The notes below the pieces were generated by a model that was not told where the DNA came from, did not search any database, and saw only the letters and a program-made list of their open reading frames with translations. Source: a virus. From it: a DNA stretch of 20,188 bases. How positions within the stretch are numbered: the stretch's first letter is position 1; every line of letters begins with the position of its first letter. This document shows positions 2,651-16,155 of the stretch, one piece after another. The position numbers and the translations under genes were made by a program. Location: UHGV virus genome UHGV-1754446. One strand, given 5' to 3'.

Positions 2651-3771
2651 CAGACGGATTCGTACAGTTCACGCTTGAAAGCGGATGGAACCGCTACCAG
2701 GTGACATGGAGCACACGCAACGATGTAAGCGGAGCGAAAAGTCTCATAGCGGCACGGCTCATGCCGGACAGTTCTGCACAGGGAGAGATCTGGATATGCG
2801 GAGTGAAGCTGGAGAAAGGCAGCGAGGCGACAGACTGGCGTTCGGAGACAATCACGCACGACGAGCTGCAGGCGACAGGAATAGACATTGAGCACAAGCG
2901 CATAAAGGTCACTGCCGACAACTTCGAGATACAGAACAACTCAGGCGAGACTGTCACCACTGTCGACGAGGCGGGCACCCTTACAGGTGTGATGCTCCGC
3001 ACTATGGACGAAGGACAGGGGCATGTGGAGATAAAGGGAGGACTGATTGAGGTAAAGAACCCTAACGGTGTGACCAACATCAAAATGGGATATAACGGCT
3101 CATACATGGTACTGTCATATTATGACAATGACGGTACGTTCCTTTATGACCTCGGACCGTGGGGACTGTCCGGCAAGGATGTCTCGGAAGAACGGTGGGA
3201 GACCAGCAGCAAATACGGACGCCTGCAGCTGACAGGGACCACATTCTCCACCGTAGGCGACATCGTTGGCAACAAACAGATAATGAACACCATATTCCAA
3301 TATGGTCATGTGTACACGAAAACACCTTTGTACATGTATCTTGCAGGGCGCGTAAACGACACATATCTCAGCGGTGACTACGCCTCCACTCCGGAGATTG
3401 CAAGAGCCGCGAACGGCAGATGGTTCATGGAGCAGGGTAATGTGACCACGGCACAGGCTGTCACAGGAATGTGGGCGCAGGACAATCCGGAATCGTTCAT
3501 GATAGGCTCGCCTATGGACACACCGCCAATGGACTATACGCGATATGAAGATGACTATGCGGAAAAGGTGGATTTCTCCAGACAATGGTGCTCGCGCAAT
3601 GTGTACAGATTCTCGAACATCGGAATCGTACAACCGGGAAGCGGCACCGTATACTACGGCAGCATGATAACGACAACAGCCGTATACATGAATTATGACA
3701 GGGTGCAGATGATACAGATTAATCGCATTGACGATGATGACACGGACACGAACGGAAACATATATTTATGA
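2647..3771 (+). CDS. Tail fibre C-terminal part (CBM-like beta-sandwich plus distal domain); probably the same gene as 86..2650 across a frameshift
   Basis: Frame of ORF 2401..3771. The first ~65 codons from the ATG at 2401 are Arg-rich and look non-coding; protein-like sequence starts about 2590-2650 (LVPNCTDWVTSPGTKNQTGVTDGFVQFTLESGWNRYQVTW ... GEIWICGVKLEKGSEATDW). 2647 is the first in-frame GTG after the upstream stop; the true junction is a frameshift between ~2590 and 2645. Confidence 0.7.
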   Translation: MTDGFVQFTLESGWNRYQVTWSTRNDVSGAKSLIAARLMPDSSAQGEIWICGVKLEKGSEATDWRSETITHDELQATGIDIEHKRIKVTADNFEIQNNSGETVTTVDEAGTLTGVMLRTMDEGQGHVEIKGGLIEVKNPNGVTNIKMGYNGSYMVLSYYDNDGTFLYDLGPWGLSGKDVSEERWETSSKYGRLQLTGTTFSTVGDIVGNKQIMNTIFQYGHVYTKTPLYMYLAGRVNDTYLSGDYASTPEIARAANGRWFMEQGNVTTAQAVTGMWAQDNPESFMIGSPMDTPPMDYTRYEDDYAEKVDFSRQWCSRNVYRFSNIGIVQPGSGTVYYGSMITTTAVYMNYDRVQMIQINRIDDDDTDTNGNIYL

Positions 3772-3793
3772 TAAAAAAACAGGAGGACAGTAT

Positions 3794-3901
3794 ATGACAT
3801 TGACAACATTGAACTTTTCCAAGACCGGAGGCTTGTGGCATGCGGAATGGACACATGGCGGTGAGGGAATATTACAGATAGACGGTGAGCCGGAACAGTA
3901 A
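3794..3901 (+). CDS. Small ORF (35 aa) with strong Shine-Dalgarno, between tail-fibre genes
   Basis: AGGAGG 7 nt upstream of ATG 3794; translation MTLTTLNFSKTGGLWHAEWTHGGEGILQIDGEPEQ; below the ORF-track size cutoff. No homology claim. Confidence 0.25.
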   Translation: MTLTTLNFSKTGGLWHAEWTHGGEGILQIDGEPEQ

Positions 3902-3917
3902 AGAAAGGAGACAGACC

Positions 3918-4571
3918 ATGAGACGTATAAGAATAGGAAACGACATCATTCTGCGCATAAGGCTTACACGCCGTGGCGGTGCAGAGAACCTCGAGGGAAA
4001 GAAAATAGGTCTTATGCTGCGCAACATTCTCGGCAGTGTGAGCCTTCTTGTAGTACAGTCAGGAGGGGAGCTGATAGCAGGATGGCAGGGCACACAGCAG
4101 CAGTGGACAGGTGCGTATACAGTGACACTCACAGAGGATTGGGGCGAGAACAACCGCAACACCGTGGATGAGGCATGCGCCTTCGAGCTTGTGTCAATAA
4201 GCAGCGACGAGGGTGTGGAGACCGGCACCGTGAACATCGAGCTTGACATGGACATCAGCGTGCCGGGCAACGGTCTGTCCGCCTATGAGATAGCCGTGCT
4301 GCACGGCTTTGAGGGCACAGAAGAAGAATGGCTGGAGAGTTTAAAGCCCGACACGAGTAATTTTGTGACAACCGAACAAGTAGCGGAAGACTATCAGCCA
4401 AAGGGAGATTATGTTACAGAAGCACCTAAGGATGGGAAAAACTATGTACGGAAAGATGGAAGCTGGACTGAGTTTGCAGGAAGTGGAAAAGCTAATGCCT
4501 TTTTTTCGAATAATATCCTTAAATTTGAGAGCGGAGGAGCACAATTTAACAACAACATATTAATAATTTGA
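3918..4571 (+). CDS. Tail fibre protein with conserved fibre motif and GC-mosaic C-terminus
   Basis: ATG 3918 preceded by AAGGAG (the ORF-track start 3885 is an upstream GTG). Contains LSAYEIAVLHGFEGTEEEWLESLK, a motif I recognise from phage tail-fibre proteins, followed by a YQPKGDYVT motif shared with the next gene. GC drops sharply right after this motif (~4340). Confidence 0.8.
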   Translation: MRRIRIGNDIILRIRLTRRGGAENLEGKKIGLMLRNILGSVSLLVVQSGGELIAGWQGTQQQWTGAYTVTLTEDWGENNRNTVDEACAFELVSISSDEGVETGTVNIELDMDISVPGNGLSAYEIAVLHGFEGTEEEWLESLKPDTSNFVTTEQVAEDYQPKGDYVTEAPKDGKNYVRKDGSWTEFAGSGKANAFFSNNILKFESGGAQFNNNILII

Positions 4572-4573
4572 TT

Positions 4574-5308
4574 ATGTCAGAAAAAATTAGCCAAATTCAG
4601 ATTAACGCCGACGTCAGAGATATAGAAGACGCGCAGGCATTACACAAAGGTGATAGTTTAGGCACAATAAATGGACAGTCTTTTAATGAAGGTAATGACT
4701 TAAACATTGAAGTTGGTACCAATGATTACAATGCCCTTAAAAACAAGCCACAAATAAACGGACATGAGTTGTCTGGGAATAAATCAGCAAAAGATTTAGG
4801 CTTACAAGAAGCAGGTGACTATGTAACTCCCGAAGATATACCCGATGTGAGCGAACTGGCAACAAAGACAGAATTGGCAGAAGGACTGGAAGGCAAGCAG
4901 CCAAAGGGTGATTATGCCACAAAGGCAGAAATACCAGATGTGAGTGGATTTATTACCTCTTCACAAGCGGAAGAAAAATATCAGCCGAAAGGAACTTATG
5001 TCACCACGACTGAACTATCTAAAAAGGCAGATAAAATCGCAACCGAAAATGTAGCCGAAACTACAAAGGAATTGCAACCGAACAAGTATTACATATTTGG
5101 CGAAGTTGCCACACTTACCATAACTCTTGCAGCAGGAGAAGAAAATGTCCTTGCTGAATACATGTTTGAGTTTACAAGCGGCACAACTCCAACAATATTG
5201 TCACTGCCCGAGGACGTTAAATGGATAGGTGAAAGCACGATTGAGGCAAGCAAGACATATCAAGTGAGCATCGTCAATAATATAGCAGTCATGGGAGGTG
5301 CAGCATGA
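4574..5308 (+). CDS. Tail fibre-like repeat protein (distal fibre / receptor-binding candidate)
   Basis: ATG 4574, in frame with a TTG at 4568 that overlaps the upstream stop. Fibre-type motifs DYNALKNKPQINGHELSGNKSAKDLGL and repeated IPDVS...QPKGDY[AV]T / YQPKGTYVT. Low-GC segment. Confidence 0.75.
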   Translation: MSEKISQIQINADVRDIEDAQALHKGDSLGTINGQSFNEGNDLNIEVGTNDYNALKNKPQINGHELSGNKSAKDLGLQEAGDYVTPEDIPDVSELATKTELAEGLEGKQPKGDYATKAEIPDVSGFITSSQAEEKYQPKGTYVTTTELSKKADKIATENVAETTKELQPNKYYIFGEVATLTITLAAGEENVLAEYMFEFTSGTTPTILSLPEDVKWIGESTIEASKTYQVSIVNNIAVMGGAA

Positions 5309-5994
5309 GCATATACAGACGCAGGCTTATGATAGCCAACACACTTAAAAAGAGTGACAGCAACATAAATTATCCTGGACTTATTGCAGCATGGTCGGCA
5401 GCAGGAAAGAGCAATGACGATGCTGATAGAAACGTGTTGCACGATTTGACGGGTAATGGGCTTGACATTACGCTGAACGGCTTTGCGTTCAATACAGAAG
5501 GAAGTGGCTATGGACATCCCGAATACCCCGATGCTCTTGTCTTTGACGGAGTGGATGATTACGGTATTAATGAGGAAATGCCGATATTGACTGATTATAC
5601 GGTTATTGTTAAGAGAGAAATATTTAGTGGCGGATTATATTCTCATGTAATCGGAAAACGTACAGGCTCTATACCGGGAGCTTTTTGGTTTGAAAGAGGT
5701 AAAGGAGATACTCATAGCTTTGGAATGGCTAATTCAATCAATATATTAAATGAAAGTATATCTTGGCAGTCCACGACAAGCTATAACGGGACACCTATAG
5801 AAAAAGGTGAAGCTGAGGATATTCATGAATTAACGATAGGTGTAGCAAGCAAAACATATCCAGATTTTAGGGGTATGGCTTTCTACTCCGCCTACCTCTT
5901 TGACCGCTCATTGGGTGAGCAGGAGATAAAGTCATTTATTAGAAAGTATATAGACGCAGACTATCTGTTACCGAGTGAACAAACAACAGAATAA
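5305..5994 (+). CDS. LamG/concanavalin-A-like lectin-fold protein (likely distal tail / adhesin component)
   Basis: ATGA start-stop overlap with the upstream gene; LVFDGVDDYG and the surrounding beta-rich sequence resemble LamG-type jelly-roll domains common in phage receptor-binding modules. Family assignment is from motif reading only. Confidence 0.7.
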   Translation: MSIYRRRLMIANTLKKSDSNINYPGLIAAWSAAGKSNDDADRNVLHDLTGNGLDITLNGFAFNTEGSGYGHPEYPDALVFDGVDDYGINEEMPILTDYTVIVKREIFSGGLYSHVIGKRTGSIPGAFWFERGKGDTHSFGMANSINILNESISWQSTTSYNGTPIEKGEAEDIHELTIGVASKTYPDFRGMAFYSAYLFDRSLGEQEIKSFIRKYIDADYLLPSEQTTE

Positions 5995-7019: not shown

Positions 7020-7253
7020 ATGAACAAGATTATAATGTGGTTTAAGACAAGCAACCGATGGAAGCATCTGCTTGGCGGTCTGATTATCGGTATGGGAGCG
7101 GATGATATATACTGTGCGGCATACGCAGGCATAGGCGTTGCGGCAGCCCTTGAACTGAAAGACAGGCAATGGGGCGGCAAATGGGACTGGACAGACTTCG
7201 GGCTGACAACAGCCGGAACAGTTGTGGGACAATGCATAAGGATGATGATATGA
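7020..7253 (+). CDS. Small membrane protein (two TM segments), second holin / antiholin candidate
   Basis: ATG 7020 preceded by GGGAG; hydrophobic segments LLGGLIIGMGADDIYCAAYAGIGVAAAL and FGLTTAGTVVGQCI. The ORF-track start 6927 would run through the upstream hairpin, so 7020 is preferred. Confidence 0.55.
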   Translation: MNKIIMWFKTSNRWKHLLGGLIIGMGADDIYCAAYAGIGVAAALELKDRQWGGKWDWTDFGLTTAGTVVGQCIRMMI

Positions 7254-7858
7254 ACGAGGTACAAAGCACATTGGAGGTCGCAAAAGGCATAAGCGACTAT
7301 GGGATAATGATAGTCATCTGCGCGGTGTTCCTGCTGCTCGCCTCAGGTCTGATGATTGCGTGTTTCCGCTGGTTCAAATCAGCGATAAGCAACATAATAT
7401 CCTACACTGACGAGCTGCGCGAGCTTAACGGAAAGCTGGAAAACAACAACCACGTCATGGTGACGATAGCGGAGGGACTGATGCCTGAGACACAACTGCG
7501 GATAAAGAACATATCCGGAGCGTTCTTTGACCTTGCGGTGGAGAAAGTATGCAGACTCCTGAAGAAAATAAGGGAGGAGAACCATATAGCCGACAAGGAA
7601 AGGACAAAGGCTAAGATACGCACCCTGCTGAGCAACATGTATGAGGACAGGAACAGCAAGTTCGACAATTTCCATTACCGTGGGAAAAAGCTCTCGGAGT
7701 ACTGCAATCCGGAATGGACAGAATGGGTGGCGAAAGTAATAGAGGGAGAGCTGTACAATGAGAACGGTGCGAACAACGGAAGAGCCTACACCAACGTCAG
7801 CGCAGTATATGACAATATAAAATTGGACTTTTATCACAGAATGACAGACCAGATATGA
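7250..7858 (+). CDS. Membrane-anchored protein of the lysis cassette (single N-terminal TM; spanin-like or lysis accessory)
   Basis: ATG 7250 overlaps the upstream stop (ATGA). N-terminal TM IMIVICAVFLLLASGLMIACF followed by a charged, helix-prone domain. Function inferred from position only. Confidence 0.65.
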   Translation: MNEVQSTLEVAKGISDYGIMIVICAVFLLLASGLMIACFRWFKSAISNIISYTDELRELNGKLENNNHVMVTIAEGLMPETQLRIKNISGAFFDLAVEKVCRLLKKIREENHIADKERTKAKIRTLLSNMYEDRNSKFDNFHYRGKKLSEYCNPEWTEWVAKVIEGELYNENGANNGRAYTNVSAVYDNIKLDFYHRMTDQI

Positions 7859-7888: not shown

Positions 7889-8482
7889 ATGGAAAAGTTT
7901 AAAGTTATACTTGATGCGGGACACGGAAGGGACACCGCAGGGAAACGTTCGCCTGACGGACGCCTGCTCGAATACGCATACGCCCGTGAGATTGCAGTGC
8001 GTCTTGAAAGGGAACTCAAGGCACGTGGATATGACGCGCAGCGCATTGTGCCCGAGGAAAACGACATCTGCCTGAAAGAGCGGTGCGAAAGGGCAAACAG
8101 AATTTATGCCGCGACAGGAAAGAAAGCGATACTTGTCTCAATACACTGTAACGCGGCTGGTGCCGACGGCAAATGGCATGACGCCAGAGGATGGTCGGCT
8201 TATGTCTCGCGCAACGCTTCAAAGAAGAGCAAAGAGCTCGCCTGCCGTCTGATTGACGCGGCAGAGACACAAGGACTGAAAGTCCGAAGATACTCACAGG
8301 ATGAGCCATATTGGACACAGAATCTCGCAATATGCCGTGACACAAATTGTCCCGCAGTCCTGACTGAAAACCTTTTTCAGGACAACCGGGAGGACGTGGA
8401 CTATCTGCTGAGCGAGAAAGGCAAGCGAACCATTGTGGAGCTGCACGTGGAAGGCATCATGGCGTACTTGGGGAAAGTGTGA
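7889..8482 (+). CDS. N-acetylmuramoyl-L-alanine amidase (Amidase_3 / AmiC-type catalytic domain), endolysin
   Basis: Motifs ILDAGHGRDTAGKRSPDG, EYAYAREIA, ILVSIHCNAAG and PAVLTENLFQDN match the Zn-amidase Amidase_3 signature (DxGHGG ... SIHxNA ... E-N-fF). 197 aa with no obvious cell-wall-binding domain. Confidence 0.9.
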   Translation: MEKFKVILDAGHGRDTAGKRSPDGRLLEYAYAREIAVRLERELKARGYDAQRIVPEENDICLKERCERANRIYAATGKKAILVSIHCNAAGADGKWHDARGWSAYVSRNASKKSKELACRLIDAAETQGLKVRRYSQDEPYWTQNLAICRDTNCPAVLTENLFQDNREDVDYLLSEKGKRTIVELHVEGIMAYLGKV

Positions 8483-8508
8483 GCTCGTTTCCAAAATGGA
8501 AATAACTG

Positions 8509-8537
8509 ACGACAGTTGCAAATTCCGCAACCGTCGT
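8509..8537 (+). terminator. Hairpin after the endolysin gene (11-bp stem with one A.C mismatch, 7-nt loop)
   Basis: ACGACAGTTGC-aaattcc-GCAACCGTCGT lies 27 nt after the amidase stop; the U-tract is weak, so this is a candidate terminator only. Confidence 0.35.
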
Positions 8538-8606
8538 AAAGGCGTTCTTTGACATTGTGGGTTGCCGTTAAAAATACAATATTTTCGAAAAATTATATAC
8601 AATTAT

Positions 8607-8628
8607 TTTGGGAAATTATATATCTTTG
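8607..8628 (+). promoter_or_regulatory. Candidate Bacteroidota-type promoter (-7 box TAtcTTTG at 8621-8628) upstream of the accessory island
   Basis: Exact match to the Bacteroides -7 consensus TAnnTTTG in an AT-rich intergenic region about 40 nt before the first possible start codon. A TTTG lies at 8607-8610, but the spacing is shorter than the canonical -33 distance. This motif occurs by chance every few kb, so the evidence is weak. Confidence 0.3.
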
Positions 8629-8640
8629 CACAATATAAGA

Positions 8641-8662
8641 AGCCCTTACGGCAATAAGGGCT
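8641..8662 (+). promoter_or_regulatory. Perfect 8-bp hairpin (AGCCCTTA-cggcaa-TAAGGGCT) immediately upstream of ORF 8666..9295
   Basis: Read directly from the sequence; lies between the candidate promoter and the start codon, so it is a 5'-UTR structure or operator candidate. Confidence 0.3.
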
Positions 8663-8665
8663 GAA

Positions 8666-9295
8666 ATGACAGACGGTGTGCCCGTCTTAAATTTAAATTA
8701 TATGGCAAAGATAAATAATAATTTTGAGAAACGAAAACGCATCACGAAAAATGAAGCGTTGGAACTGCTAAAAGATTGTTATGAGGACATCTTCAAGGCG
8801 TATTACGCAGGTCTGGAAAATTACAATGAAGAAATAAATATGACCATACCTGAAGCAAGGACAAGGCTTGTAGGTCCTTTGCTTAACGCAAAAATAACAG
8901 AGAGTTTCATTCTCACATTTCCCGAGAACTGGAACAAAGGCAAATACGGAAGGATAATATTCAGATGGAACGGTGTGCTCATGCTCATCAAGAAATTGAA
9001 CAAGAATGACAAGCCGTCTTACATTCCGACAATACTTTCAGATTCGATTGTCAACCAATACCAATTACCGCTTTTCCAAGGCGATGAAGGCAAGGAAGAG
9101 CCGATATTGATTTTCGGATATACAAAGGACGGTTTCGGGCAGCTCGTAAACCCGAGAATTGTCTTGTATGACGATGGGGTTCAATGGACTGCCTATATGG
9201 AAGACGGTGTAAATATGCCGACTGCCAATACAGACACGCAGGAGATTATTGTCCGCCTGAAAAAGAAAGAGACAGGAGAAAAGAAGGCAGAATAA
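8666..9295 (+). CDS. Hypothetical protein (197-209 aa), first gene of the accessory island; candidate effector
   Basis: ORF with possible starts at 8666 (MTDGVPV...) or 8702 (MAKINNNFEK...); no motif I recognise; lower GC than the flanking lysis genes; bracketed by the 15-bp inverted repeat. Confidence 0.75.
   Translation: MTDGVPVLNLNYMAKINNNFEKRKRITKNEALELLKDCYEDIFKAYYAGLENYNEEINMTIPEARTRLVGPLLNAKITESFILTFPENWNKGKYGRIIFRWNGVLMLIKKLNKNDKPSYIPTILSDSIVNQYQLPLFQGDEGKEEPILIFGYTKDGFGQLVNPRIVLYDDGVQWTAYMEDGVNMPTANTDTQEIIVRLKKKETGEKKAE
8669..8683. repeat. Left copy of a 15-bp perfect inverted repeat (ACAGACGGTGTGCCC)
   Basis: Exact reverse complement of 9301..9315; overlaps codons 2-6 of the ORF that starts at 8666. 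Confidence 0.9.
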
Positions 9296-9300
9296 CAGCA

Positions 9301-9315
9301 GGGCACACCGTCTGT
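9301..9315. repeat. Right copy of the 15-bp perfect inverted repeat (GGGCACACCGTCTGT)
   Basis: Exact reverse complement of 8669..8683; lies 6 nt after the stop of ORF 8666..9295 and 33 nt before the XRE-ImmA start. Confidence 0.9.
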
Positions 9316-9347
9316 TTTCAACAAACGACCTATAAAAGCAACGTCTT

Positions 9348-10403
9348 ATGAAATGTGAGCAGCTAACATTCGCAAGGGAATACAGGGGATTTACGCAAAC
9401 CGCACTCGCGGCAAAAGTCAAAGGGCTATCGCAATCCAACCTGTCAAAATATGAAAAGGGGTTTGGCGGGCTGTCAGACAACATGCTTAGTTTGATTATG
9501 TCCACGCTTGATTTTCCGATGAAATTCCTTGACATGAATATTGTGAACAAGGTTGACAGCAAGCATTACAGGAAAAAGGCAACCATAACCGTAAAGACAC
9601 GCAACGAGATAGACAGGACAATATCCCTGATTGCGTATTGTTTTGATTGGCTTAGTGAATTTGTCGAGATACCTGACTATTCATTTGGATACTACGACAT
9701 GGACAACGGCATAAGCCCGGAGGAACTTGCCGGGCACATAAGGAACAAATACAGGCTCGGCATGTCGCCTATATCCGATATTTGCAATTTCCTTGAGCGC
9801 AATGGGGTATTCATTTACATGTGGGACAGTCCTAACGACGAGTTTGACGGGGTATCCCTGATAACTGACGCAGGCAATCATCTTATCATTGTGAACAGGA
9901 ACAGAAGCAACGACAGGGTAAGGTTTACGCTTGCACATGAGCTGGGACACATACTGATGCACGAGTGCCCAAGTTTCCCGGTATTCAGCATTAGAGACAA
10001 GGAGAAAGAGGCGAACGCTTTTGCATCAGAGTTCCTTCTCCCCTCCCAGGCTGTCAGAAACGCCTTGCACAATGTCAGGCTCGGACAGTTCCCTGAGCTG
10101 AAACGGTATTGGCTTGTTTCCATGGCATCACTTTTGGAAAAGGCAAAAAACATAAACGCCATTGCAAGTGAGAAGTACAAGTCTATGAGAATGGAGTTCA
10201 GCAGACGCCATTGGAATAAGAAAGAACCTTACGAAGTGCCTATTGACAGCCCTACCGTCTTTGAGCAGGCATATAGGCTGGTATCGGACACATTGGGGTA
10301 TTCAATCAGCATGATTTCGGAAAGCACAGGCTTGCCCGAGGATGTCTTGATAAAGATATTCGGCAAATCTGCGAGGATAATATCATTAAAGCCACTAATA
10401 TAA
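9348..10403 (+). CDS. HTH_XRE DNA-binding domain fused to ImmA/IrrE-family Zn-metallopeptidase (COG2856-like)
   Basis: N-terminus LTFAREYRGFTQTALAAKVKGLSQSNLSKYEKG is a typical XRE helix-turn-helix. The central part has the HEXXH Zn site (AHELGHILMHE) followed by EKEANAFASEFLLP, the third-ligand/E..AN.FA motif characteristic of ImmA/IrrE peptidases. Confidence 0.9.
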   Translation: MKCEQLTFAREYRGFTQTALAAKVKGLSQSNLSKYEKGFGGLSDNMLSLIMSTLDFPMKFLDMNIVNKVDSKHYRKKATITVKTRNEIDRTISLIAYCFDWLSEFVEIPDYSFGYYDMDNGISPEELAGHIRNKYRLGMSPISDICNFLERNGVFIYMWDSPNDEFDGVSLITDAGNHLIIVNRNRSNDRVRFTLAHELGHILMHECPSFPVFSIRDKEKEANAFASEFLLPSQAVRNALHNVRLGQFPELKRYWLVSMASLLEKAKNINAIASEKYKSMRMEFSRRHWNKKEPYEVPIDSPTVFEQAYRLVSDTLGYSISMISESTGLPEDVLIKIFGKSARIISLKPLI

Positions 10404-10429
10404 CAATTATCTATTTTGATACAACACAG

Positions 10430-10467
10430 GCGGTGACCCACATATCAAGGGTTGCCGCTTTTTGTTT
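10430..10467 (+). terminator. Rho-independent terminator after the XRE-ImmA gene
   Basis: GCGGUGACCC-acauaucaa-GGGUUGCCGC forms a 10-bp stem (with two G.U pairs at RNA level) followed by TTTTTGTTT; it starts 27 nt after the stop codon. Confidence 0.6.
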
Positions 10468-10485
10468 AATAAAAAATGAAAGAAC

Positions 10486-10995
10486 ATGGGAAGATTTAAA
10501 GGATTGCTTGTGGTAGTATCGGTGTTGTTGACCGCATCATTATGCGTCAACATACTCCAGTGCAGTAATGCCGGAAAGAAAACAACGAATCAGGACACAG
10601 TACGGACTACATATATAGACACCATTCCGTTCTTGAATCCTGTACCCAAAGACAGTACGGTGATACGGTATGTTACGGAGACGTTGCCCGTGACTTGCCG
10701 CAAAGACACGATATACGAAGAGAAGGGCGGGAATACAGGCGACAGCGTCAAGGTGACACTGCCTATAACTTCCAAAGTCTATAAGGACAGTACCTATACC
10801 GCATACGTGAGCGGATTCCGCGCGAATCTTGACAGTATATTTGTATATCCGAGACACGAGACTGTAACTGTCACAAGGTACAAGGAAAGTCCGCGCCTTG
10901 GCGTCGGTATTGCCGCAGGTTACGGTATAGGGAAAGACATGAAACCGACACCTTTCATAGGAATATCCGTATATTATAGGCTTTGGCAGTGGTAG
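10486..10995 (+). CDS. Secreted or membrane-anchored protein with N-terminal signal peptide (possible lipoprotein); superinfection-exclusion candidate
   Basis: N-terminus MGRFKGLLVVVSVLLTASLCVNILQC is a hydrophobic signal or anchor with Cys residues near the predicted cleavage region; the mature part is rich in T/S/Y/V. Function is inferred from its accessory-island position. Confidence 0.7.
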   Translation: MGRFKGLLVVVSVLLTASLCVNILQCSNAGKKTTNQDTVRTTYIDTIPFLNPVPKDSTVIRYVTETLPVTCRKDTIYEEKGGNTGDSVKVTLPITSKVYKDSTYTAYVSGFRANLDSIFVYPRHETVTVTRYKESPRLGVGIAAGYGIGKDMKPTPFIGISVYYRLWQW

Positions 10996-10997
10996 TA

Positions 10998-11201
10998 TCA
11001 GCCATCTGGGAACAGTCTTTCGTAGAACTCTCCCTGCCGTCGCACCAAAGCTTCCCCATAGTCCAACCCGTAAACATCGGCATCGTGCCTTGCTATGCGT
11101 CGCACACGAGCCTGTGCCGAGCGCGGACAATGTATGGCAATCAGATGCTCTGCCTCGGCAAACAGACGGGCGGAGTATTCATCATTTGGCATCTGTGTCA
11201 T
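10998..11201 (-). CDS. Small GC-rich protein (67 aa) with strong Shine-Dalgarno
   Basis: AAGGAGG lies 5 nt upstream of the ATG at 11201 on the minus strand; no motif recognised. It converges on the + strand gene, with stop codons 2 nt apart. Confidence 0.4.
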   Translation of the reverse strand: MTQMPNDEYSARLFAEAEHLIAIHCPRSAQARVRRIARHDADVYGLDYGEALVRRQGEFYERLFPDG

Positions 11202-11572: not shown

Positions 11573-12127
11573 TTAATATTTCTTATTCCCATGCTTAAAT
11601 GGGCGGAGTCTGTTATAGCGCATCTTCTGCTCGACGTAGAAGTCGATGTCGATATCGTTTTGGTGGCAGAATAAGATAATGAGGGCTACAGTGAGATTGA
11701 TTTTTTCGCAAAGGGCTTCCTTATATAAACAAAGTCCCTCACAAAGATGGTACATGACGACGGGGAATGGCTCATTAATGAATTTTGCGTCTGAAGCAAG
11801 AAACTCGTCAACGTAATGCAGGGATATTCCGCGCAGTGCAGCCAAGTCCAAACAGCGTATGATGATGTCGCTAAGTTCATCCTCAACCGAGTTTTTGACG
11901 TGTGTCTCAAATTCATACTTAAATACAACGTCGTCATCGGCGTATGTTCCAAGTAATGCTTTGAAAAGGTCAATGTCCGTGTGCCTGTCCTTGCGGTCTG
12001 CCTGTACAGCTTCAGATATCTCAGTAATGATAAGCATCAAATAAGTTTCGTCAGGCAGTTCTTCATCGTGCCATCCGTGCGTCTTTGCGGTCTCAAAAAC
12101 TGCTTTTGATAATTTAGTCAAATCCAT
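11573..12127 (-). CDS. MazG-like (all-alpha) nucleoside triphosphate pyrophosphohydrolase
   Basis: Acidic motifs in MazG-like spacing: LMLIITEISEAVQADRKD (E..E) and EDELSDIIIRCLDLAALRGISL (E..D, with the L.LA...GI.L helix), plus a C-terminal K..YNRLRP tail. Family assignment is from motifs only. Confidence 0.55.
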   Translation of the reverse strand: MDLTKLSKAVFETAKTHGWHDEELPDETYLMLIITEISEAVQADRKDRHTDIDLFKALLGTYADDDVVFKYEFETHVKNSVEDELSDIIIRCLDLAALRGISLHYVDEFLASDAKFINEPFPVVMYHLCEGLCLYKEALCEKINLTVALIILFCHQNDIDIDFYVEQKMRYNRLRPFKHGNKKY

Positions 12128-13896: not shown

Positions 13897-14061
13897 TTAT
13901 CTTGTGATTTTAGAGGAAATTTTCCTTGTATTTCCTTTGTTTTCCTTTGCCAAACACTCATTGCCACATCTTCTGCCCACGTCGTACTTATCGCACCATC
14001 CGTCTCCGTAGAAGCCTTCGTTAATGAAGTGGATACATGAGCCGCAGTGTCTTGCTTTCAT
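13897..14061 (-). CDS. Small Cys-rich protein (54 aa, putative Zn-binding), coupled to the PAPS-reductase-like gene
   Basis: Not in the ORF track (below 60 aa). Own translation: MKARHCGSCIHFINEGFYGDGWCDKYDVGRRCGNECLAKENKGNTRKISSKITR. Its ATG overlaps the stop of 14058..14975 (ATGA). Confidence 0.4.
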   Translation of the reverse strand: MKARHCGSCIHFINEGFYGDGWCDKYDVGRRCGNECLAKENKGNTRKISSKITR

Positions 14062-14975
14062 TTTTCGTCGTCTTTAAATTCAAATTTCTGTTGCAGGAAC
14101 TCGTCAGCGTAGAACTGCTTGTAGCTCTTGTCGCTTATCCACCACCTAAAGCCTGTTTCAGCGTCGTTGAAATTGTGGTCGATATATCCGTTGTCTATCA
14201 GCCATTGGATTGTCTTTATCCAATTGCGTTTGACGTGCGGCCAGCGTTTAGCATCTTCCTTCTTTATCCGTGCGTTCGACATAGGGCAACAGATGCAGCC
14301 AATGCGTGTATAACCCTCGTCGTAGAGTTCGCAGTGTGGTATGCCGTTCATGTTAAGGAACTCCCACACGTCGCGCTCCGTCCAATAGATTATGGGCGAT
14401 ACAAGGATTTTGTCCTTACCGCCGACACACGCAACCATGCTCTCCTCATGTTCGCTCCATTGGTCAAAGGTTTCCTCATTGCGCTTGCCCTTTATCTCTG
14501 TGGATATTTCCTCACGTTTTGCACGCCGTGCGCTTTCTTCTTTTCTCACACCGATAAGTGTCACCTTGCCAACGCCTGACGTTTCCTTGAACTCGGCACA
14601 ACACCAACGCAAAGTCCTTGTCGGCAAGATGTGCTTTTTCTTCGCCATTTCGTAAATGCTCATCCGTGGTTTGATTAGCTCCACATCGGGGTATTGCGTC
14701 TTGACGAAGCGGATGACTTCGGGCGGGTCTATGCTCGTAAGGTTCATGTGAGCCTTGAAGCGGACACCGGCCAGCTTTGCGACATGGTAGAGGCATTGGC
14801 TGTCCTTGCCGCCACTGAACGCAAGGTAAAAGCCGTTTTCGGGGTCGAGGCGCAACGCCATTTTCTCCGACTTCCGCAAAAGTTCGACGGAGTGTTCCAG
14901 CTTCCTTGCAAGCGGACGGCTTACCTTTGACATTACGGTGTCGTGGTCAAGCAGTATTATTTCACACGCTTTCAT
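14058..14975 (-). CDS. PP-loop ATP-pyrophosphatase of the PAPS-reductase / TtcA-like (adenine-nucleotide alpha-hydrolase) superfamily
   Basis: PP-loop motif FYLAFSGGKDSQCLYHVA (SGGxDS), plus Cys clusters RWCCAEF and GCICCP that could ligate Fe-S or Zn, as in DndC/TtcA/CysH-like enzymes. I cannot assign the exact subfamily without a profile search. Confidence 0.85.
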   Translation of the reverse strand: MKACEIILLDHDTVMSKVSRPLARKLEHSVELLRKSEKMALRLDPENGFYLAFSGGKDSQCLYHVAKLAGVRFKAHMNLTSIDPPEVIRFVKTQYPDVELIKPRMSIYEMAKKKHILPTRTLRWCCAEFKETSGVGKVTLIGVRKEESARRAKREEISTEIKGKRNEETFDQWSEHEESMVACVGGKDKILVSPIIYWTERDVWEFLNMNGIPHCELYDEGYTRIGCICCPMSNARIKKEDAKRWPHVKRNWIKTIQWLIDNGYIDHNFNDAETGFRWWISDKSYKQFYADEFLQQKFEFKDDEK

Positions 14976-15106: not shown

Positions 15107-15253
15107 CTAATCGTCTACAATGGCTTTTGCTAAACCGAAGAGAAGGATATATATTCCTAACATGAGCAGTACCCATGGGAAACTTGTCAACATCCATATA
15201 GAGGCTGCCACGCAAAGTGCACCGGCATGGATGATTAGTTCAGTTCTGTTCAT
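15107..15253 (-). CDS. Small hydrophobic membrane peptide (48 aa), translationally coupled
   Basis: Own translation: MNRTELIIHAGALCVAASIWMLTSFPWVLLMLGIYILLFGLAKAIVDD. Its ATG overlaps the stop of the radical-SAM gene (ATGA). Confidence 0.35.
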   Translation of the reverse strand: MNRTELIIHAGALCVAASIWMLTSFPWVLLMLGIYILLFGLAKAIVDD

Positions 15254-16155
15254 TGCTTCATATTTTTAAGTTTGTAACTATTCTCATTAAGCCACTTTTG
15301 GAAATACCATAACTGACCGCATCCGCCACCTATATCGTCTTGCCCTGCCGGGTTAAATACTCTCGTATTAAAACCTACGTCATTCATCTTTGAATTAAAG
15401 TCACGGATTAAGTCAAGTTGTCGCTGTATTGATGAATGTACACTTTCATCCTTTTCGCAAATAACAGACAAAGTGACCTCCCATATATCAGGGTTAAATA
15501 ATTCAGAGAGCCTCATAGCATCTTCCATATCATTATTCCCGACATGTACGCAATAATTAAAGAAAGGCTTTCTTCCGACATAAGAAGCCCAAAACTCACC
15601 CGTAGAAGCTATTTGCCGAAGTGTTGACGTATTCGTTGCTATAAGTTTCTTCCTTTTTTCATCTGTACTTTCATGTACTGAAAATTGAAGACCTACTTTA
15701 TCTATTTCTTTCGATAGTGCAATAAAATCAGACATGTATAAATACATCATGTGAGGGGCAGAAGTGCTTACAAGAAGTTGTGCGTTTGGATATTTCACAT
15801 GTAGACTTTCTATTGCAGGCTGCAATGCCGAGTAGTTGTAAAAAGGCTCTCCCATGCTCATAAACATAATTTGGAACTTTTTAATGTCATCAGTGCGGCA
15901 ATCAATAGTAGATAATGCCCCATCAATCTGTTGTATTATTTCGTCAGTAGAAAGATTTCTGACAAAAAATTTGCCTGTTCCGCAGAAAGAACATCCAACT
16001 GGACAACCGCTTTGAACCGAACAACATATAACTGTCCTTTTTTTGTATTCTCCATATCTATAAAGAACAGTTTCAGCAATAGCATTTGGCTTGTCCCACT
16101 CAAACACGAATTTCTTTACATTCGTATCACTTGATTCAAATACTTTTGTTTTCAT
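15250..16155 (-). CDS. Radical-SAM methyltransferase of the RlmN/Cfr family (N-terminally minimal form)
   Basis: RTVICCSVQSGCPVGCSFCGTGKFFVRNLSTDEIIQQI aligns with the E. coli RlmN region [38 protein letters not shown] (CxxxCxxC plus the upstream mechanistic Cys). MFMSMGEP matches VMMGMGEP, STSAP matches STSG, FSVHESTDE matches ISLHAPNDE, and the C-terminal DDIGGGCGQL matches DDIDAACGQL (second catalytic Cys). At 301 aa it lacks the ~80-aa N-terminal domain of RlmN. Confidence 0.88.
   Translation of the reverse strand: MKTKVFESSDTNVKKFVFEWDKPNAIAETVLYRYGEYKKRTVICCSVQSGCPVGCSFCGTGKFFVRNLSTDEIIQQIDGALSTIDCRTDDIKKFQIMFMSMGEPFYNYSALQPAIESLHVKYPNAQLLVSTSAPHMMYLYMSDFIALSKEIDKVGLQFSVHESTDEKRKKLIATNTSTLRQIASTGEFWASYVGRKPFFNYCVHVGNNDMEDAMRLSELFNPDIWEVTLSVICEKDESVHSSIQRQLDLIRDFNSKMNDVGFNTRVFNPAGQDDIGGGCGQLWYFQKWLNENSYKLKNMKQ

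What the first reader, a model, noticed from the sequence alone, without database searches (positions are those of the whole stretch)
8483..10995. Self-contained accessory island after the endolysin: unknown protein + HTH_XRE-ImmA/IrrE metallopeptidase fusion + signal-peptide protein
Seen in sequence: directly after the lysis cassette and a hairpin lies a lower-GC block with a Bacteroides-type -7 box (TAtcTTTG, 8621-8628), an unknown ~200-aa ORF (8666/8702-9295), a 351-aa protein combining an XRE helix-turn-helix with an intact ImmA/IrrE HEXXH...E..AN.FA peptidase (9348-10403), a clean intrinsic terminator (10430-10467), and a signal-peptide protein (10486-10995). Established knowledge: the region between lysis genes and the prophage end is a classic moron and defence hotspot, and XRE-ImmA (COG2856) proteins are protease-coupled regulators (the ImmR/ImmA and IrrE paradigm) that often sit beside toxic or defensive effectors. 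Inference: the unknown protein is a candidate effector under control of the XRE-peptidase, giving a two- or three-gene abortive-infection, toxin-antitoxin-like or superinfection-exclusion module. I recognise no known defence-system signature in the 200-aa protein, so it may be undescribed.
Basis: partly seen in the sequence, partly recalled or inferred. Interest (0 to 1): 0.82.

Follow-up and report, generated by a model that had tools for sequence, protein, structure and literature searches.

The report
Prophage toxin–antitoxin cassette with RNA switch
A Prevotella prophage carries a dispensable two-gene cassette of the RosmerTA toxin–antitoxin/defence type, with a previously unclassified ~200-aa partner protein, and its messenger RNA holds a strongly conserved long-range helix that closes the whole partner gene into a loop, a layer of RNA control I found described only for a different class of toxin systems.

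Summary
The sequence features are real. The unit has two genes, not three. ORF-A (8702-9295) was followed by an ORF-B homologue (9348-10403, XRE-HTH + M78 peptidase) on the same strand in all 79 fetched loci encoding an ORF-A homologue. These loci are prophages and chromosomal defence islands of Bacteroidota. A close relative phage lacks exactly 8641-10448.

ORF-B matches 14 PADLOC RmrA models over its full length (best E 5e-59), so this is a RosmerTA-type pair. ORF-A matches no Pfam, PHROG, PADLOC or NCBIfam model and no structure convincingly. It is remotely homologous to the gene upstream of an RmrA-like gene in an Acinetobacter phage.

The DUF6808 gene belongs to the phage lysis cassette, not to the module.

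New here: the leader (8669-8683) pairs with the A-B spacer (9301-9315). This helix keeps its position but changes sequence in 32 distinct versions. 13 of 14 pairs show compensatory changes, and internal wobbles run G·U 9 to A·C 1. A competing local hairpin also covaries. Tandem ATACAA repeats mark a likely operator.

Toxicity, defence and the RNA's role are inferred, not shown.

The parts
8574..8620 (+). Two tandem ~23-nt units (ATACAAT-N-AAATTAT ×2) directly upstream of and merging into the -7 box. Candidate operator for the HTH of ORF-B, overlapping the -33 region.
   Evidence: Direct repeat D3. The 'ATACAA ... TATATACAA ... ATTATA|TATCTTTG' layout is present in 24 representative loci from Bacteroidia to Flavobacteriia. 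The HTH recognition-helix residues of ORF-B are invariant. Binding itself is inferred.
8621..8628 (+). Bacteroidota-type -7 promoter box TATCTTTG (consensus TAnnTTTG)
   Evidence: Sequence. Conserved at 78-95 nt before the ATG in all 24 representative loci. Broken in the deletion relative L090.
8641..8662 (+). HP1: 8-bp hairpin at the 5' end of the transcript (AGCCCTTA / TAAGGGCT)
   Evidence: Folds alone. 7 of 8 pairs show compensatory double changes in 32 distinct sequences.
8669..8687 (+). 5' arm of the long-range helix (8669-8683, ACAGACGGTGTGCCC). It overlaps the alternative local hairpin HP2 (8671-8676 / 8682-8687).
   Evidence: Perfect 15-nt complement of 9301-9315. Covariation. HP2 covaries as well: 6 of 6 pairs. 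The leader alone folds as HP1 + HP2.
8702..9295 (+). ORF-A, 197 aa: candidate toxin/effector (RmrT-like) of an unclassified family
   Evidence: No Pfam, PHROG, PADLOC or NCBIfam hit. Confident AF2 model (pLDDT 84) with no significant structural match. Always upstream of an ORF-B homologue. Remote homology to Acinetobacter phage ABMM1 gp30 (hhalign 94.5%, E 8e-8).
9301..9315 (+). 3' arm of the long-range helix (GGGCACACCGTCTGT), 6 nt after the ORF-A stop and 33 nt before the ORF-B ATG, followed by UUUU
   Evidence: Present in the MFE and centroid folds of 8634-9360. Present in the MFE of 23 of 23 representative mRNAs.
9348..10403 (+). ORF-B, 351 aa: RmrA-type XRE-HTH + ImmA/IrrE (M78) Zn-peptidase + C-terminal helical domain. 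Candidate antitoxin and autorepressor.
   Evidence: PADLOC RmrA, 14 models, E 5e-59 to 2e-31, full length. phrog_2439 E 5e-75. NCBIfam spr1629-family repressor/antitoxin E 7.6e-32, below cut-off. AF2 pLDDT 89. HEXXH invariant.
10430..10467 (+). Intrinsic terminator closing the bicistronic operon
   Evidence: -20.8 kcal/mol, z -4.6, followed by U5GU3. Its 3' half is retained in the deletion relative L090.

Best explanation
Positions 8574-10467 are a self-contained bicistronic cassette of the RosmerTA type, carried as a dispensable accessory unit (moron) inside the lysis region of a Prevotella prophage.

- **Transcription.** It starts at its own Bacteroidota promoter (-7 box 8621-8628) and stops at the terminator at 10430-10467.
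- **ORF-B.** It is the RmrA-type partner. Its XRE helix-turn-helix most likely binds the tandem ATACAA repeats over the promoter and represses the operon. The protein neutralises ORF-A. Its invariant HEXXH peptidase is probably what senses or executes the switch on phage infection or damage.
- **ORF-A.** It is the effector/toxin. It belongs to an unclassified ~200-aa family with no conserved acidic, His or Cys residue, so it more likely acts by binding a target than by metal-dependent hydrolysis.
- **mRNA.** The nascent leader folds into HP1 and a short hairpin HP2. Once the A-B spacer is made, the 5' strand of HP2 can re-pair with it in a 15-bp helix that encloses the ORF-A cistron. I infer that this lowers or times toxin output relative to antitoxin in a toxin-first operon. 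Possible routes are hindered initiation at ORF-A, creation of a processing site, or melting by ribosomes terminating at the ORF-A stop.

**Shown:** module boundaries, obligatory pairing, RmrA membership by profile, covariation of the RNA helices, conservation of the promoter and repeats.

**Inferred:** toxicity, neutralisation, operator binding, anti-phage role, and what the helix does.
For: **Pairing and mobility**
- All 79 fetched loci encoding an ORF-A homologue (40-100% identity) have an ORF-B homologue immediately downstream on the same strand, 38-70 nt away in the 34 distinct leader/spacer versions.
- All 3 more distant ORF-B homologues sampled are preceded by an ORF-A family member (hmmsearch E 1e-63 to 1e-74).
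- Identities of A and B to the window pair co-vary (Pearson 0.98, Spearman 0.77).
- Contexts include prophages after the endolysin, the ends of polysaccharide loci, next to QatABCD plus PIN and RelE pairs, next to a type I HsdR, and next to Mrr.
- Relative phage L090 lacks exactly 8641-10448.

**Classification**
- PADLOC RmrA, best E 5e-59, full length. NCBIfam spr1629-family repressor/antitoxin, E 7.6e-32.
- Literature: RmrA neutralises diverse RmrT toxins and these systems defend against phage (10.1101/2022.05.11.491447; PMC10440598). RipB antagonises the toxin RipA (10.1101/2025.09.02.673660).
- ORF-A family versus the Acinetobacter gp30 family encoded upstream of an RmrA-like gene: hhalign 94.5%, E 8e-8.

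**RNA**
- 32 distinct leader/spacer versions all have a 10-16 bp helix at -33..-19 of the ATG and +5..+20 after the stop, with at least 9 different arm sequences.
- On an independent MAFFT alignment, 13 of 14 pairs show double changes. 86% of cells are paired against 31-43% when the partner is slid, and 0 of 500 shuffles reach the observed score.
- Cognate duplex energy averages -30.8 kcal/mol, against -17.0 for non-cognate pairs.
- The helix is in the MFE of 23 of 23 mRNAs.
- Internal wobbles: G·U 9, A·C 1.
- HP2 covaries.

**Promoter and operator**
- Repeats are conserved in 24 of 24 representative loci.
Against: - There are no functional data for this family.
- ORF-A has no transmembrane segment, no catalytic signature and no similarity to any characterised toxin. 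It matches no PADLOC model, so standard tools would not call this locus RosmerTA.
- NCBIfam similarity of ORF-B to the spr1629 family is far below the curated cut-off (111 versus 335 bits).
- The role of the M78 peptidase in RosmerTA systems is unknown in the papers I read.
- The helix ends 18 nt before the ATG, so it does not obviously occlude the start site.
- One subfamily (L080 type) has a 13-nt spacer and no helix or hairpin. The Acinetobacter and Gordonia relatives have overlapping or abutting genes. So the RNA element is not essential to the pair.
- Covariation shows selection for pairing, not what the pairing does.
Confidence: 0.6

Rival explanations
1. The pair is a regulatory or sensor unit rather than a toxin-antitoxin. 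ORF-A would be a non-toxic substrate, adaptor or anti-repressor-like partner of the XRE-peptidase (as ImmR/ImmA, DdrO/IrrE and CapH/CapP pairs are regulators), controlling other genes in trans.
For: - ORF-A has no toxin-like features: no invariant D/E/H/C and no significant fold match.
- It has a disordered C-terminal tail ending in a conserved KKAE/RKAE (89 of 176 full-length members), which looks like a protease or partner recognition tag.
- Makarova et al. 2009 raised a generic-regulator role for Xre-COG2856 (PMC2701414).
- ORF-B also matches capP (E 5.6e-20).
Against: - The RmrA models fit over the full length and about 40 orders of magnitude better than capP.
- No conserved third gene is present, and neighbours differ in every context.
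- Characterised relatives of this architecture are toxin-antitoxin pairs (PMC10440598; 10.1101/2025.09.02.673660).
- Elaborate RNA control of the upstream cistron fits a dangerous product.
Confidence: 0.2
2. The XRE-peptidase is the prophage's own lysogeny or induction switch (ImmR/ImmA-like), and ORF-A is an unrelated phage gene.
For: XRE + M78 proteins do this job in ICEBs1 and some phages (PMC2701414; PMC10440598). Some phage records annotate B-like genes as cI-like repressors.
Against: - The pair sits at the end of the late (tail/lysis) gene arm, not by an integrase or an early-gene divergence point.
- A closely related phage lacks it.
- The same pair occurs in chromosomal, non-phage settings.
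- ORF-A always travels with it.
Confidence: 0.04
3. The inverted repeats 8669-8683 / 9301-9315 are DNA sites for a site-specific inversion (an inverton) that flips ORF-A for phase variation, as is common in Bacteroidales.
For: A perfect 15-bp inverted repeat brackets a 617-bp segment just downstream of a promoter.
Against: - ORF-A and ORF-B are in the same orientation in all 79 loci encoding an ORF-A homologue and in the 3 loci reached through distant ORF-B homologues.
- The arm sequence differs between close relatives within one genus. That fits base pairing, not recognition by a shared recombinase.
- No recombinase gene is a constant neighbour.
- Mismatches are biased to sense-strand G·U (9) over A·C (1).
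- A third segment (the HP2 3' strand) covaries with the 5' strand, which an inverton does not need.
Confidence: 0.03
4. It is a three-gene system that includes the signal-peptide DUF6808 protein.
For: The gene is adjacent and co-oriented in the window, and in L012-L016 and L031-L033.
Against: - A strong terminator separates it from ORF-B.
- It is absent next to A-B in most loci. In L042-type phages it lies about 730 nt upstream of ORF-A.
- In L090 it follows the amidase directly without A-B, and in L091-L096 it sits 63 nt upstream of the amidase.
Confidence: 0.02

Closest known systems
RosmerTA (RmrT/RmrA) toxin-antitoxin defence systems (Millman et al. 2022, 10.1101/2022.05.11.491447; Ernits et al. 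2023, PMC10440598, including the Gordonia phage Kita system)
   Same: - Two-gene operon, often toxin first.
- The antitoxin has an N-terminal XRE HTH and an ImmA/IrrE Zn-peptidase. ORF-B hits 14 RmrA profiles over its full length.
- The partner is a small protein of unknown family.
- Carried by prophages and defence islands.
   Different: - ORF-A matches no PADLOC model.
- It is soluble, unlike the membrane-depolarising Kita toxin described in PMC10440598.
- The Bacteroidota operon has a 38-70 nt spacer and a covarying long-range RNA helix, which none of the RosmerTA papers I read describe.
- Toxicity and defence are untested here.
RipAB (Spr1630/Spr1629) of Streptococcus pneumoniae, a Rosmer-family TA whose toxin binds the DnaN sliding clamp (10.1101/2025.09.02.673660)
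   Same: - ORF-B aligns over its full length with the NCBIfam spr1629-family repressor/antitoxin model (E 7.6e-32).
- The toxin gene lies upstream in the same operon.
- The RipA toxin works by binding, with no catalytic activity reported in that paper.
- The ORF-A close clade carries Q-x-[S/P]-L-F plus acidic residues, which resembles the clamp-binding motif QL[SD]LF as I recall it (108 of 109 members).
   Different: - The score is well below the model's cut-off (111 versus 335 bits).
- ORF-A has no NCBIfam hit.
- The motif is missing in 42 of 67 distant family representatives and is not conserved in the Acinetobacter relatives.
- A clamp interaction is a lead only.
Acinetobacter phage vB_AbaM_ABMM1 gp30-gp31 and the Acinetobacter soli relatives
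   Same: - gp31 is RmrA-like (PADLOC E 1e-56).
- gp30 (209 aa, directly upstream) is a remote homologue of ORF-A: profile-profile 94.5%, E 8e-8 over 151 columns.
- So the A-B partnership spans phyla.
   Different: - About 15% identity.
- The genes overlap by 4 nt, so there is no spacer and no long-range helix.
- Uncharacterised as well.
Type I toxin mRNAs with a 5'-3' long-distance interaction and metastable hairpins (hok/Sok; aapA/IsoA of Helicobacter, PMC6733600)
   Same: - A local hairpin in the nascent leader can be replaced by a much more stable helix with a sequence just downstream of the toxin ORF, closing the toxin cistron.
- Both alternatives are kept by compensatory changes.
   Different: - Here the antitoxin is a protein encoded downstream on the same mRNA.
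- The toxin is about 200 aa, not a small membrane peptide.
- The helix does not cover the start region (it ends at -19), and these genes show no obvious Shine-Dalgarno sequence to sequester.
- No antisense RNA was looked for.
- This is resemblance in design, not family membership.
ImmR/ImmA (ICEBs1), DdrO/IrrE (Deinococcus) and CapH/CapP regulators
   Same: XRE HTH plus M78 (COG2856) peptidase with an intact HEXXH. The logic is a protease-controlled repressor.
   Different: - Here the two domains are fused in one protein.
- The pair is not next to integrase/excision genes, a radiation regulon or a CBASS operon.
- It is dispensable for the phage.

Membership tests
RosmerTA (RmrT/RmrA) | Antitoxin with an N-terminal XRE HTH and an ImmA/IrrE (M78) Zn-peptidase that matches RmrA profiles | tested here: met
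   PADLOC RmrA, 14 models, E 5e-59 to 2e-31, covering residues ~3-343. Pfam HTH_3 + Peptidase_M78. HEXXH and E..A..FA invariant.
RosmerTA (RmrT/RmrA) | Conserved two-gene operon with an adjacent small partner gene | tested here: met
   All 79 loci encoding an ORF-A homologue, plus all 3 distant ORF-B homologues sampled. Own promoter and terminator.
RosmerTA (RmrT/RmrA) | Partner matches a catalogued RmrT profile | tested here: not met
   No PADLOC hit for ORF-A or for any of 36 family members at E ≤ 1. I could not confirm that this PADLOC copy holds RmrT models: the upstream partners of two other phage RmrA-like genes also gave no hit. RmrT families are described as diverse (PMC10440598), so this does not exclude membership.
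RosmerTA (RmrT/RmrA) | Partner is toxic and is neutralised by RmrA, and the system protects against phage | not testable with these tools
   Needs expression and phage-challenge experiments.
ImmR/ImmA-type element switch (lysogeny or ICE induction) | Located with and controlling the element's integration/excision or early genes, and indispensable for regulating the element | tested here: not met
   The pair sits between the endolysin and DUF6808 at the end of the late arm. It is absent from close relative L090. It is present in non-phage chromosomal loci.
CapH/CapP-type regulators of defence operons | Separate HTH and M78 proteins next to a CBASS or other effector operon | tested here: not met
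   Domains are fused. The capP match (E 5.6e-20) is far weaker than the RmrA match. No constant effector operon is adjacent.
PD-(D/E)XK nuclease fold (for ORF-A) | αβββαβ core with conserved acidic residues and Lys of the D...(D/E)xK motif | tested here: not met
- No conserved D/E. Only K97 is invariant; R84, K98, P105, T110, Q119, G139, Y140 and K187 are ≥90% conserved.
Type I-toxin-style mRNA long-distance interaction | Covarying 5'-3' helix enclosing the toxin ORF, with a competing local hairpin | tested here: met
Type I-toxin-style mRNA long-distance interaction | The helix sequesters the ribosome-binding region and an antisense RNA acts as antitoxin | tested here: inconclusive
   The helix ends at -19 and does not cover the start codon region. 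Antisense transcription was not examined. So it may work like these systems but is not a member.
Inverton (phase-variable DNA inversion) | Both orientations occur, and the repeats are recombinase recognition sites | tested here: not met
   None of the 82 loci examined is inverted. Arm sequences diverge freely while staying complementary. G·U over A·C bias, 9 to 1. Raw reads were not examined.
β-clamp-binding toxins (RipA, SocB) | Interaction with the DnaN hydrophobic pocket through a QL[SD]LF-like motif | tested here: inconclusive
   Q121-L-P-L124-F125 in the window. The pattern Q..[LM]F is in 108 of 109 close-clade members but only 25 of 67 distant representatives. Solvent exposure in the model could not be checked.

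The most novel reading that the evidence does not exclude
A protein-antitoxin (RosmerTA-type) operon is controlled by an RNA switch of the kind known from type I toxins. A metastable leader hairpin is replaced by a 5'-3' long-distance helix that closes the toxin cistron. It sets the toxin:antitoxin ratio, or acts as the trigger when infection perturbs transcription, translation or RNases. It may have evolved in Bacteroidota as a substitute for the gene-overlap coupling seen in the Acinetobacter and Gordonia relatives. In addition, ORF-A may found a wider, cross-phylum family of non-enzymatic RmrT effectors.
Probability: 0.35. Interest if true: 0.78.

Novelty: new variant of a known kind. Interest (0 to 1): 0.62.

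Why it matters
- **Unannotated defence content.** Profile libraries recognise only the RmrA half here, so pairs like this go uncalled in gut Bacteroidota and their prophages. The ORF-A family (about 115 clusters at 50% identity) adds a partner family. Through the Acinetobacter link, it shows that at least one RmrT-RmrA partnership is ancient rather than a recent partner swap.
- **Prophage biology.** The cassette is a cleanly bounded gain/loss unit inside a lysis cassette of a Prevotella prophage. That makes it a natural test case for prophage-encoded superinfection defence in an abundant but hard-to-study gut genus.
- **RNA control.** The three-way covarying leader hairpin and long-range helix is a concrete, mutable RNA element in a group with little Shine-Dalgarno use, as I recall. 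It offers a direct way to ask how toxin-first operons keep toxin output below antitoxin output.

Tried and rejected
- **Nuclease reading of ORF-A.** Rejected. Restriction enzymes recur among the weak hits, but the catalytic residues are not conserved.
- **Rfam.** No family matches 8300-11200, even at E ≤ 1.
- **Deposited genomes.** No nucleotide match of the window in deposited phage genomes. No ORF-A homologue in deposited phages or plasmids by tblastn.
- **Inverton reading of the repeats.** Considered and rejected.
- **Three-gene module including DUF6808.** Rejected.
- **Paired decay of A and B in L024.** I looked for it as indirect evidence of addiction. It was uninformative, because that record has masked bases and an apparent frameshift.
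- **Long-range terminator idea.** A U-run follows the 3' arm in many loci but not all, so I kept it only as a minor possibility.
- **Gordonia phage Shlim410 gp34.** No convincing homology to ORF-A (hhalign 18%).
- **A:B complex model.** I did not attempt one.

Full report
**1. What is in the window**

The plus strand carries tail-fibre genes (86-5994; PHROG tail and host-specificity hits). Small membrane proteins follow, then phrog_19698 (7169-7858) and an Amidase_3 endolysin (7889-8482).

After the region of interest, a convergent minus-strand arm begins at 11182. It includes a MazG-like pyrophosphatase and a PAPS-reductase-like gene.

The window is 100% identical over the sampled region to IMG/VR contig IMGVR_UViG_3300045988_136180 (42.9 kb). 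Near-identical copies lie inside metagenome contigs of 121-565 kb. A relative 89% identical in ORF-A lies on a 135-kb contig of an uncultured Prevotella genome. So this is a Prevotella prophage.

**2. Checking the observation**

- The -7 box TATCTTTG is at 8621-8628.
- ORF-A is there. Its true start is 8702, because homologues are 195-199 aa and the 8666 ATG is ATT in close relatives.
- ORF-B is 351 aa, with HTH_3 and Peptidase_M78 and an invariant HEXXH.
- The terminator at 10430-10467 folds at -20.8 kcal/mol, z -4.6.
- The DUF6808 protein has an N-terminal hydrophobic segment.
- The hairpin at 8509-8537 is there.
- GC dips modestly: 0.36-0.45 against 0.53 in the amidase.

**3. The unit is two genes, and they always travel together**

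I collected loci through exact-protein look-ups and through scans of genome, metagenome and viral collections.
- All 79 loci encoding an ORF-A homologue (40-100% identity) have an ORF-B homologue immediately downstream on the same strand.
- The loci come from Prevotella/Segatella, Bacteroides, Alloprevotella, and the flavobacteria Rasiella and Maribacter.
- Going the other way, three ORF-B homologues at 46-47% identity are each preceded by a member of the ORF-A family (E 1e-63 to 1e-74).
- Identities of A and B to the window pair track each other (Pearson 0.98).

Everything around the pair changes.
- Prophages: after GH108 or amidase lysins.
- Chromosome: the ends of polysaccharide biosynthesis loci in Segatella copri.
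- Defence neighbours: QatABCD with PIN and RelE pairs, a type I HsdR, Mrr, DUF4365.

**4. The cassette is dispensable, and DUF6808 is not part of it**

A related phage (L090) has the same phrog_19698 gene (98%), amidase (94%) and DUF6808 gene (76%) but no A-B.
- Nucleotide homology to the window runs to 8640 and resumes at 10449, with about 45 nt in between.
- The operator-like repeats and the 3' half of the terminator remain, and the -7 box is broken.
- This looks like a deletion of the cassette.

DUF6808 behaves as a lysis-cassette gene of the phage backbone.
- In more distant phages it sits 63 nt upstream of the amidase.
- In L042-type phages it lies upstream of A-B.
- In the window a strong terminator separates it from ORF-B.

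**5. What ORF-B is**

- It matches 14 PADLOC RmrA profiles over its whole length (E 5e-59 to 2e-31), far better than capP (5.6e-20).
- It matches phrog_2439 (5e-75).
- It matches the NCBIfam 'spr1629 family repressor/antitoxin' model (7.6e-32, below cut-off).
- The AlphaFold model (pLDDT 89) has four parts: an HTH (1-62), a less confident linker, the peptidase core (about 124-270) and a C-terminal helical domain (274-338).

RmrA is the antitoxin of RosmerTA systems.
- These pair it with diverse toxins and defend against phage (10.1101/2022.05.11.491447; PMC10440598).
- Spr1629/RipB antagonises the clamp-targeting toxin RipA.
- Prophage-borne RosmerTA systems are also reported in Acinetobacter.

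**6. What ORF-A is**

- It matches no Pfam, PHROG, PADLOC or NCBIfam model, for the window protein or its relatives.
- The family is small: 115 representatives at 50% clustering among 1.84 billion proteins.
- It is absent from deposited phage and plasmid genomes.
- The AlphaFold model is confident (pLDDT 84, pTM 0.77). It has four N-terminal helices, a β-sheet core and a disordered tail at 173-197.
- No acidic, His or Cys residue is conserved. Only K97 is invariant; R84, K98, P105, T110, Q119, G139, Y140 and K187 are ≥90% conserved.
- I therefore reject a canonical nuclease and favour a binding-type effector.

The family is remotely homologous to the ~207-aa proteins encoded directly upstream of RmrA-like genes in Acinetobacter, such as phage ABMM1 gp30. 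The profile-profile comparison gives 94.5%, E 8e-8, over 151 columns. So this partnership spans phyla.

**7.

A perfect 15-nt inverted repeat (8669-8683 / 9301-9315) brackets ORF-A. Homologous loci keep such a helix at the same place, -33..-19 of the ATG and +5..+20 after the stop, but with different sequences.
- At least nine arm classes occur among 32 distinct leader/spacer versions. Each has 10-16 contiguous Watson-Crick pairs.
- On a MAFFT alignment made without reference to structure, the helix falls in one register.
- 13 of 14 pairs show changes on both sides. 86% of cells are paired, against 31-43% when the partner is slid. No shuffle of 500 reaches the observed covariation.
- Cognate leader-spacer duplexes average -30.8 kcal/mol, against -17.0 for non-cognate and -13.9 for shuffled.
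- The helix appears in the MFE and centroid folds of the window mRNA and in the MFE of 23 of 23 representative mRNAs.
- Internal non-Watson-Crick pairs are G·U nine times and A·C once. This points to RNA of the sense strand rather than to DNA sites.

Two further elements covary.
- HP1 is a hairpin at the 5' end (7 of 8 pairs).
- HP2 is a short local hairpin. Its 5' strand is the same segment that forms the long-range helix (6 of 6 pairs).
- The leader alone folds as HP1 + HP2.
- So one strand has two conserved, mutually exclusive partners.

This design matches that of type I toxin mRNAs, where metastable hairpins give way to a 5'-3' long-distance interaction (PMC6733600).

There are differences.
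- The helix stops 18 nt before the start codon.
- The antitoxin is a protein on the same transcript.
- One Bacteroidota subfamily (L080) has a 13-nt spacer and no helix.
- The Acinetobacter and Gordonia relatives have overlapping or abutting genes.

The RNA element is therefore an add-on of one lineage. It is perhaps an alternative to coupling by gene overlap.

**8. Promoter and likely operator**

All 24 representative loci share two tandem ~23-nt units, 'ATACAA ... ATTATATACAA ... ATTATA', running into the -7 box (window 8574-8620).
- The predicted recognition helix of ORF-B (S28-Q29-x-N31-L32-S33) is invariant.
- Autorepression by ORF-B is thus a reasonable inference, but it is untested.

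**9. Mechanism I commit to (confidence about 0.6)**

This is a RosmerTA-type toxin-antitoxin/defence cassette, expressed from its own promoter in the lysogen.
- ORF-B represses the operon and neutralises ORF-A. Its peptidase is part of the release or sensing step.
- ORF-A is a non-enzymatic effector.
- The mRNA switch keeps toxin output below antitoxin output in a toxin-first operon.

How the helix does this is open.
- It may hinder 30S loading next to the helix.
- It may create a double-strand processing site that separates the two cistrons and removes the protective 5' hairpin.
- It may be melted each time a ribosome terminates 5-8 nt upstream of the 3' arm.
- A long-range terminator is a minor possibility, since a U-run follows the arm in many loci but not all.

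**10. Rivals**

- A non-toxic regulator or substrate pair (0.2).
- The phage's own lysogeny switch (0.04).
- An inverton (0.03).
- A three-gene unit with DUF6808 (0.02).

The evidence for and against each is given in the rival entries.

**11. Novelty and score**

The kind of system is known (RosmerTA). The pair is a new variant.
- It has an uncatalogued partner family with cross-phylum depth.
- It has a conserved RNA switch and operator layout that I did not find described for these systems.

Nothing functional is shown, so interest is moderate to high (0.62) rather than the 0.82 first assigned.

Noticed in passing
window 9062-9076 (ORF-A residues 121-125, QLPLF, followed by QGDEGKEE): The ORF-A close clade keeps a Q-x-[S/P]-L-F motif followed by acidic residues (108 of 109 members; the commonest forms include QVSLF, QQSLF, QLSLF and QMSLF). 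It resembles the β-clamp-binding motif QL[SD]LF as I recall it, and a Rosmer-family toxin (RipA) was recently reported to bind the DnaN pocket. The motif is present in only 25 of 67 distant representatives and is not conserved in the Acinetobacter relatives.
   Followed up: partly
window 9218-9292 (ORF-A residues 173-197): The C-terminal tail is predicted disordered (pLDDT below 50), yet it ends in a conserved KKAE or RKAE in 89 of 176 full-length family members, with a conserved V-x-L-K about 10 residues earlier. It could be a recognition or cleavage tag for the ORF-B peptidase, or the conservation could reflect RNA constraints next to the 3' arm.
   Followed up: no
window 10486-10995; L090 5001-5507; L091-L096: The DUF6808 gene (phrog_26448) is next to the endolysin in several unrelated Bacteroidota phages, on either side of it. 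This suggests an undescribed lysis-cassette component, for example a spanin- or anchor-like protein.
   Followed up: partly
L090 (IMGVR_UViG_3300045988_126137) 4860-4965: The relative lacking A-B still carries the tandem ATACAA repeats and the terminator, but has a mutated -7 box (TATATGCT). This looks like a scar of cassette loss.
   Followed up: yes
L080-L083 (2355-4080): One subfamily of the pair, in phage-like loci after a GH108 lysin, has only a 13-nt spacer and neither HP1 nor the long-range helix. This natural variant would be useful for testing what the RNA element adds.
   Followed up: partly
L017, L018, L021 (1-5540 and 8019-8700): In some chromosomal loci the pair is flanked by a QatABCD-like operon (KAP NTPase, QatB, TatD) and by PIN or RelE toxin-antitoxin pairs. 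That is a compact defence island next to polysaccharide loci.
   Followed up: no
L024, L025 (genome contigs records titled Clostridium sp. CAG:302 and [Ruminococcus] lactaris): Short contigs (3.7-5.3 kb) in Firmicutes-labelled MAG bins carry this module with a Bacteroidota-type TAnnTTTG promoter. This is probably mis-binning rather than real transfer.
   Followed up: no
window 11573-12127, 14058-14975, 15250-16155 (minus strand): The convergent arm encodes a MazG-like pyrophosphatase (phrog_9236), a PAPS-reductase-like protein (phrog_424) and a protein with a weak radical-SAM-like hit. This gene set is reminiscent of phage nucleotide or DNA-modification pathways.
   Followed up: no
window 8666-8668: The upstream ATG that would give a 209-aa ORF-A lies between HP1 and the 5' arm and is ATT in close relatives. 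Some gene callers nevertheless extend the gene upstream (205 aa in L012).
   Followed up: yes
window 2401-2650: The 854-aa tail-fibre ORF (86-2650) and the next long ORF (2401-3771) overlap by 250 nt in different frames as listed. The true start of the second gene is probably further downstream.
   Followed up: no
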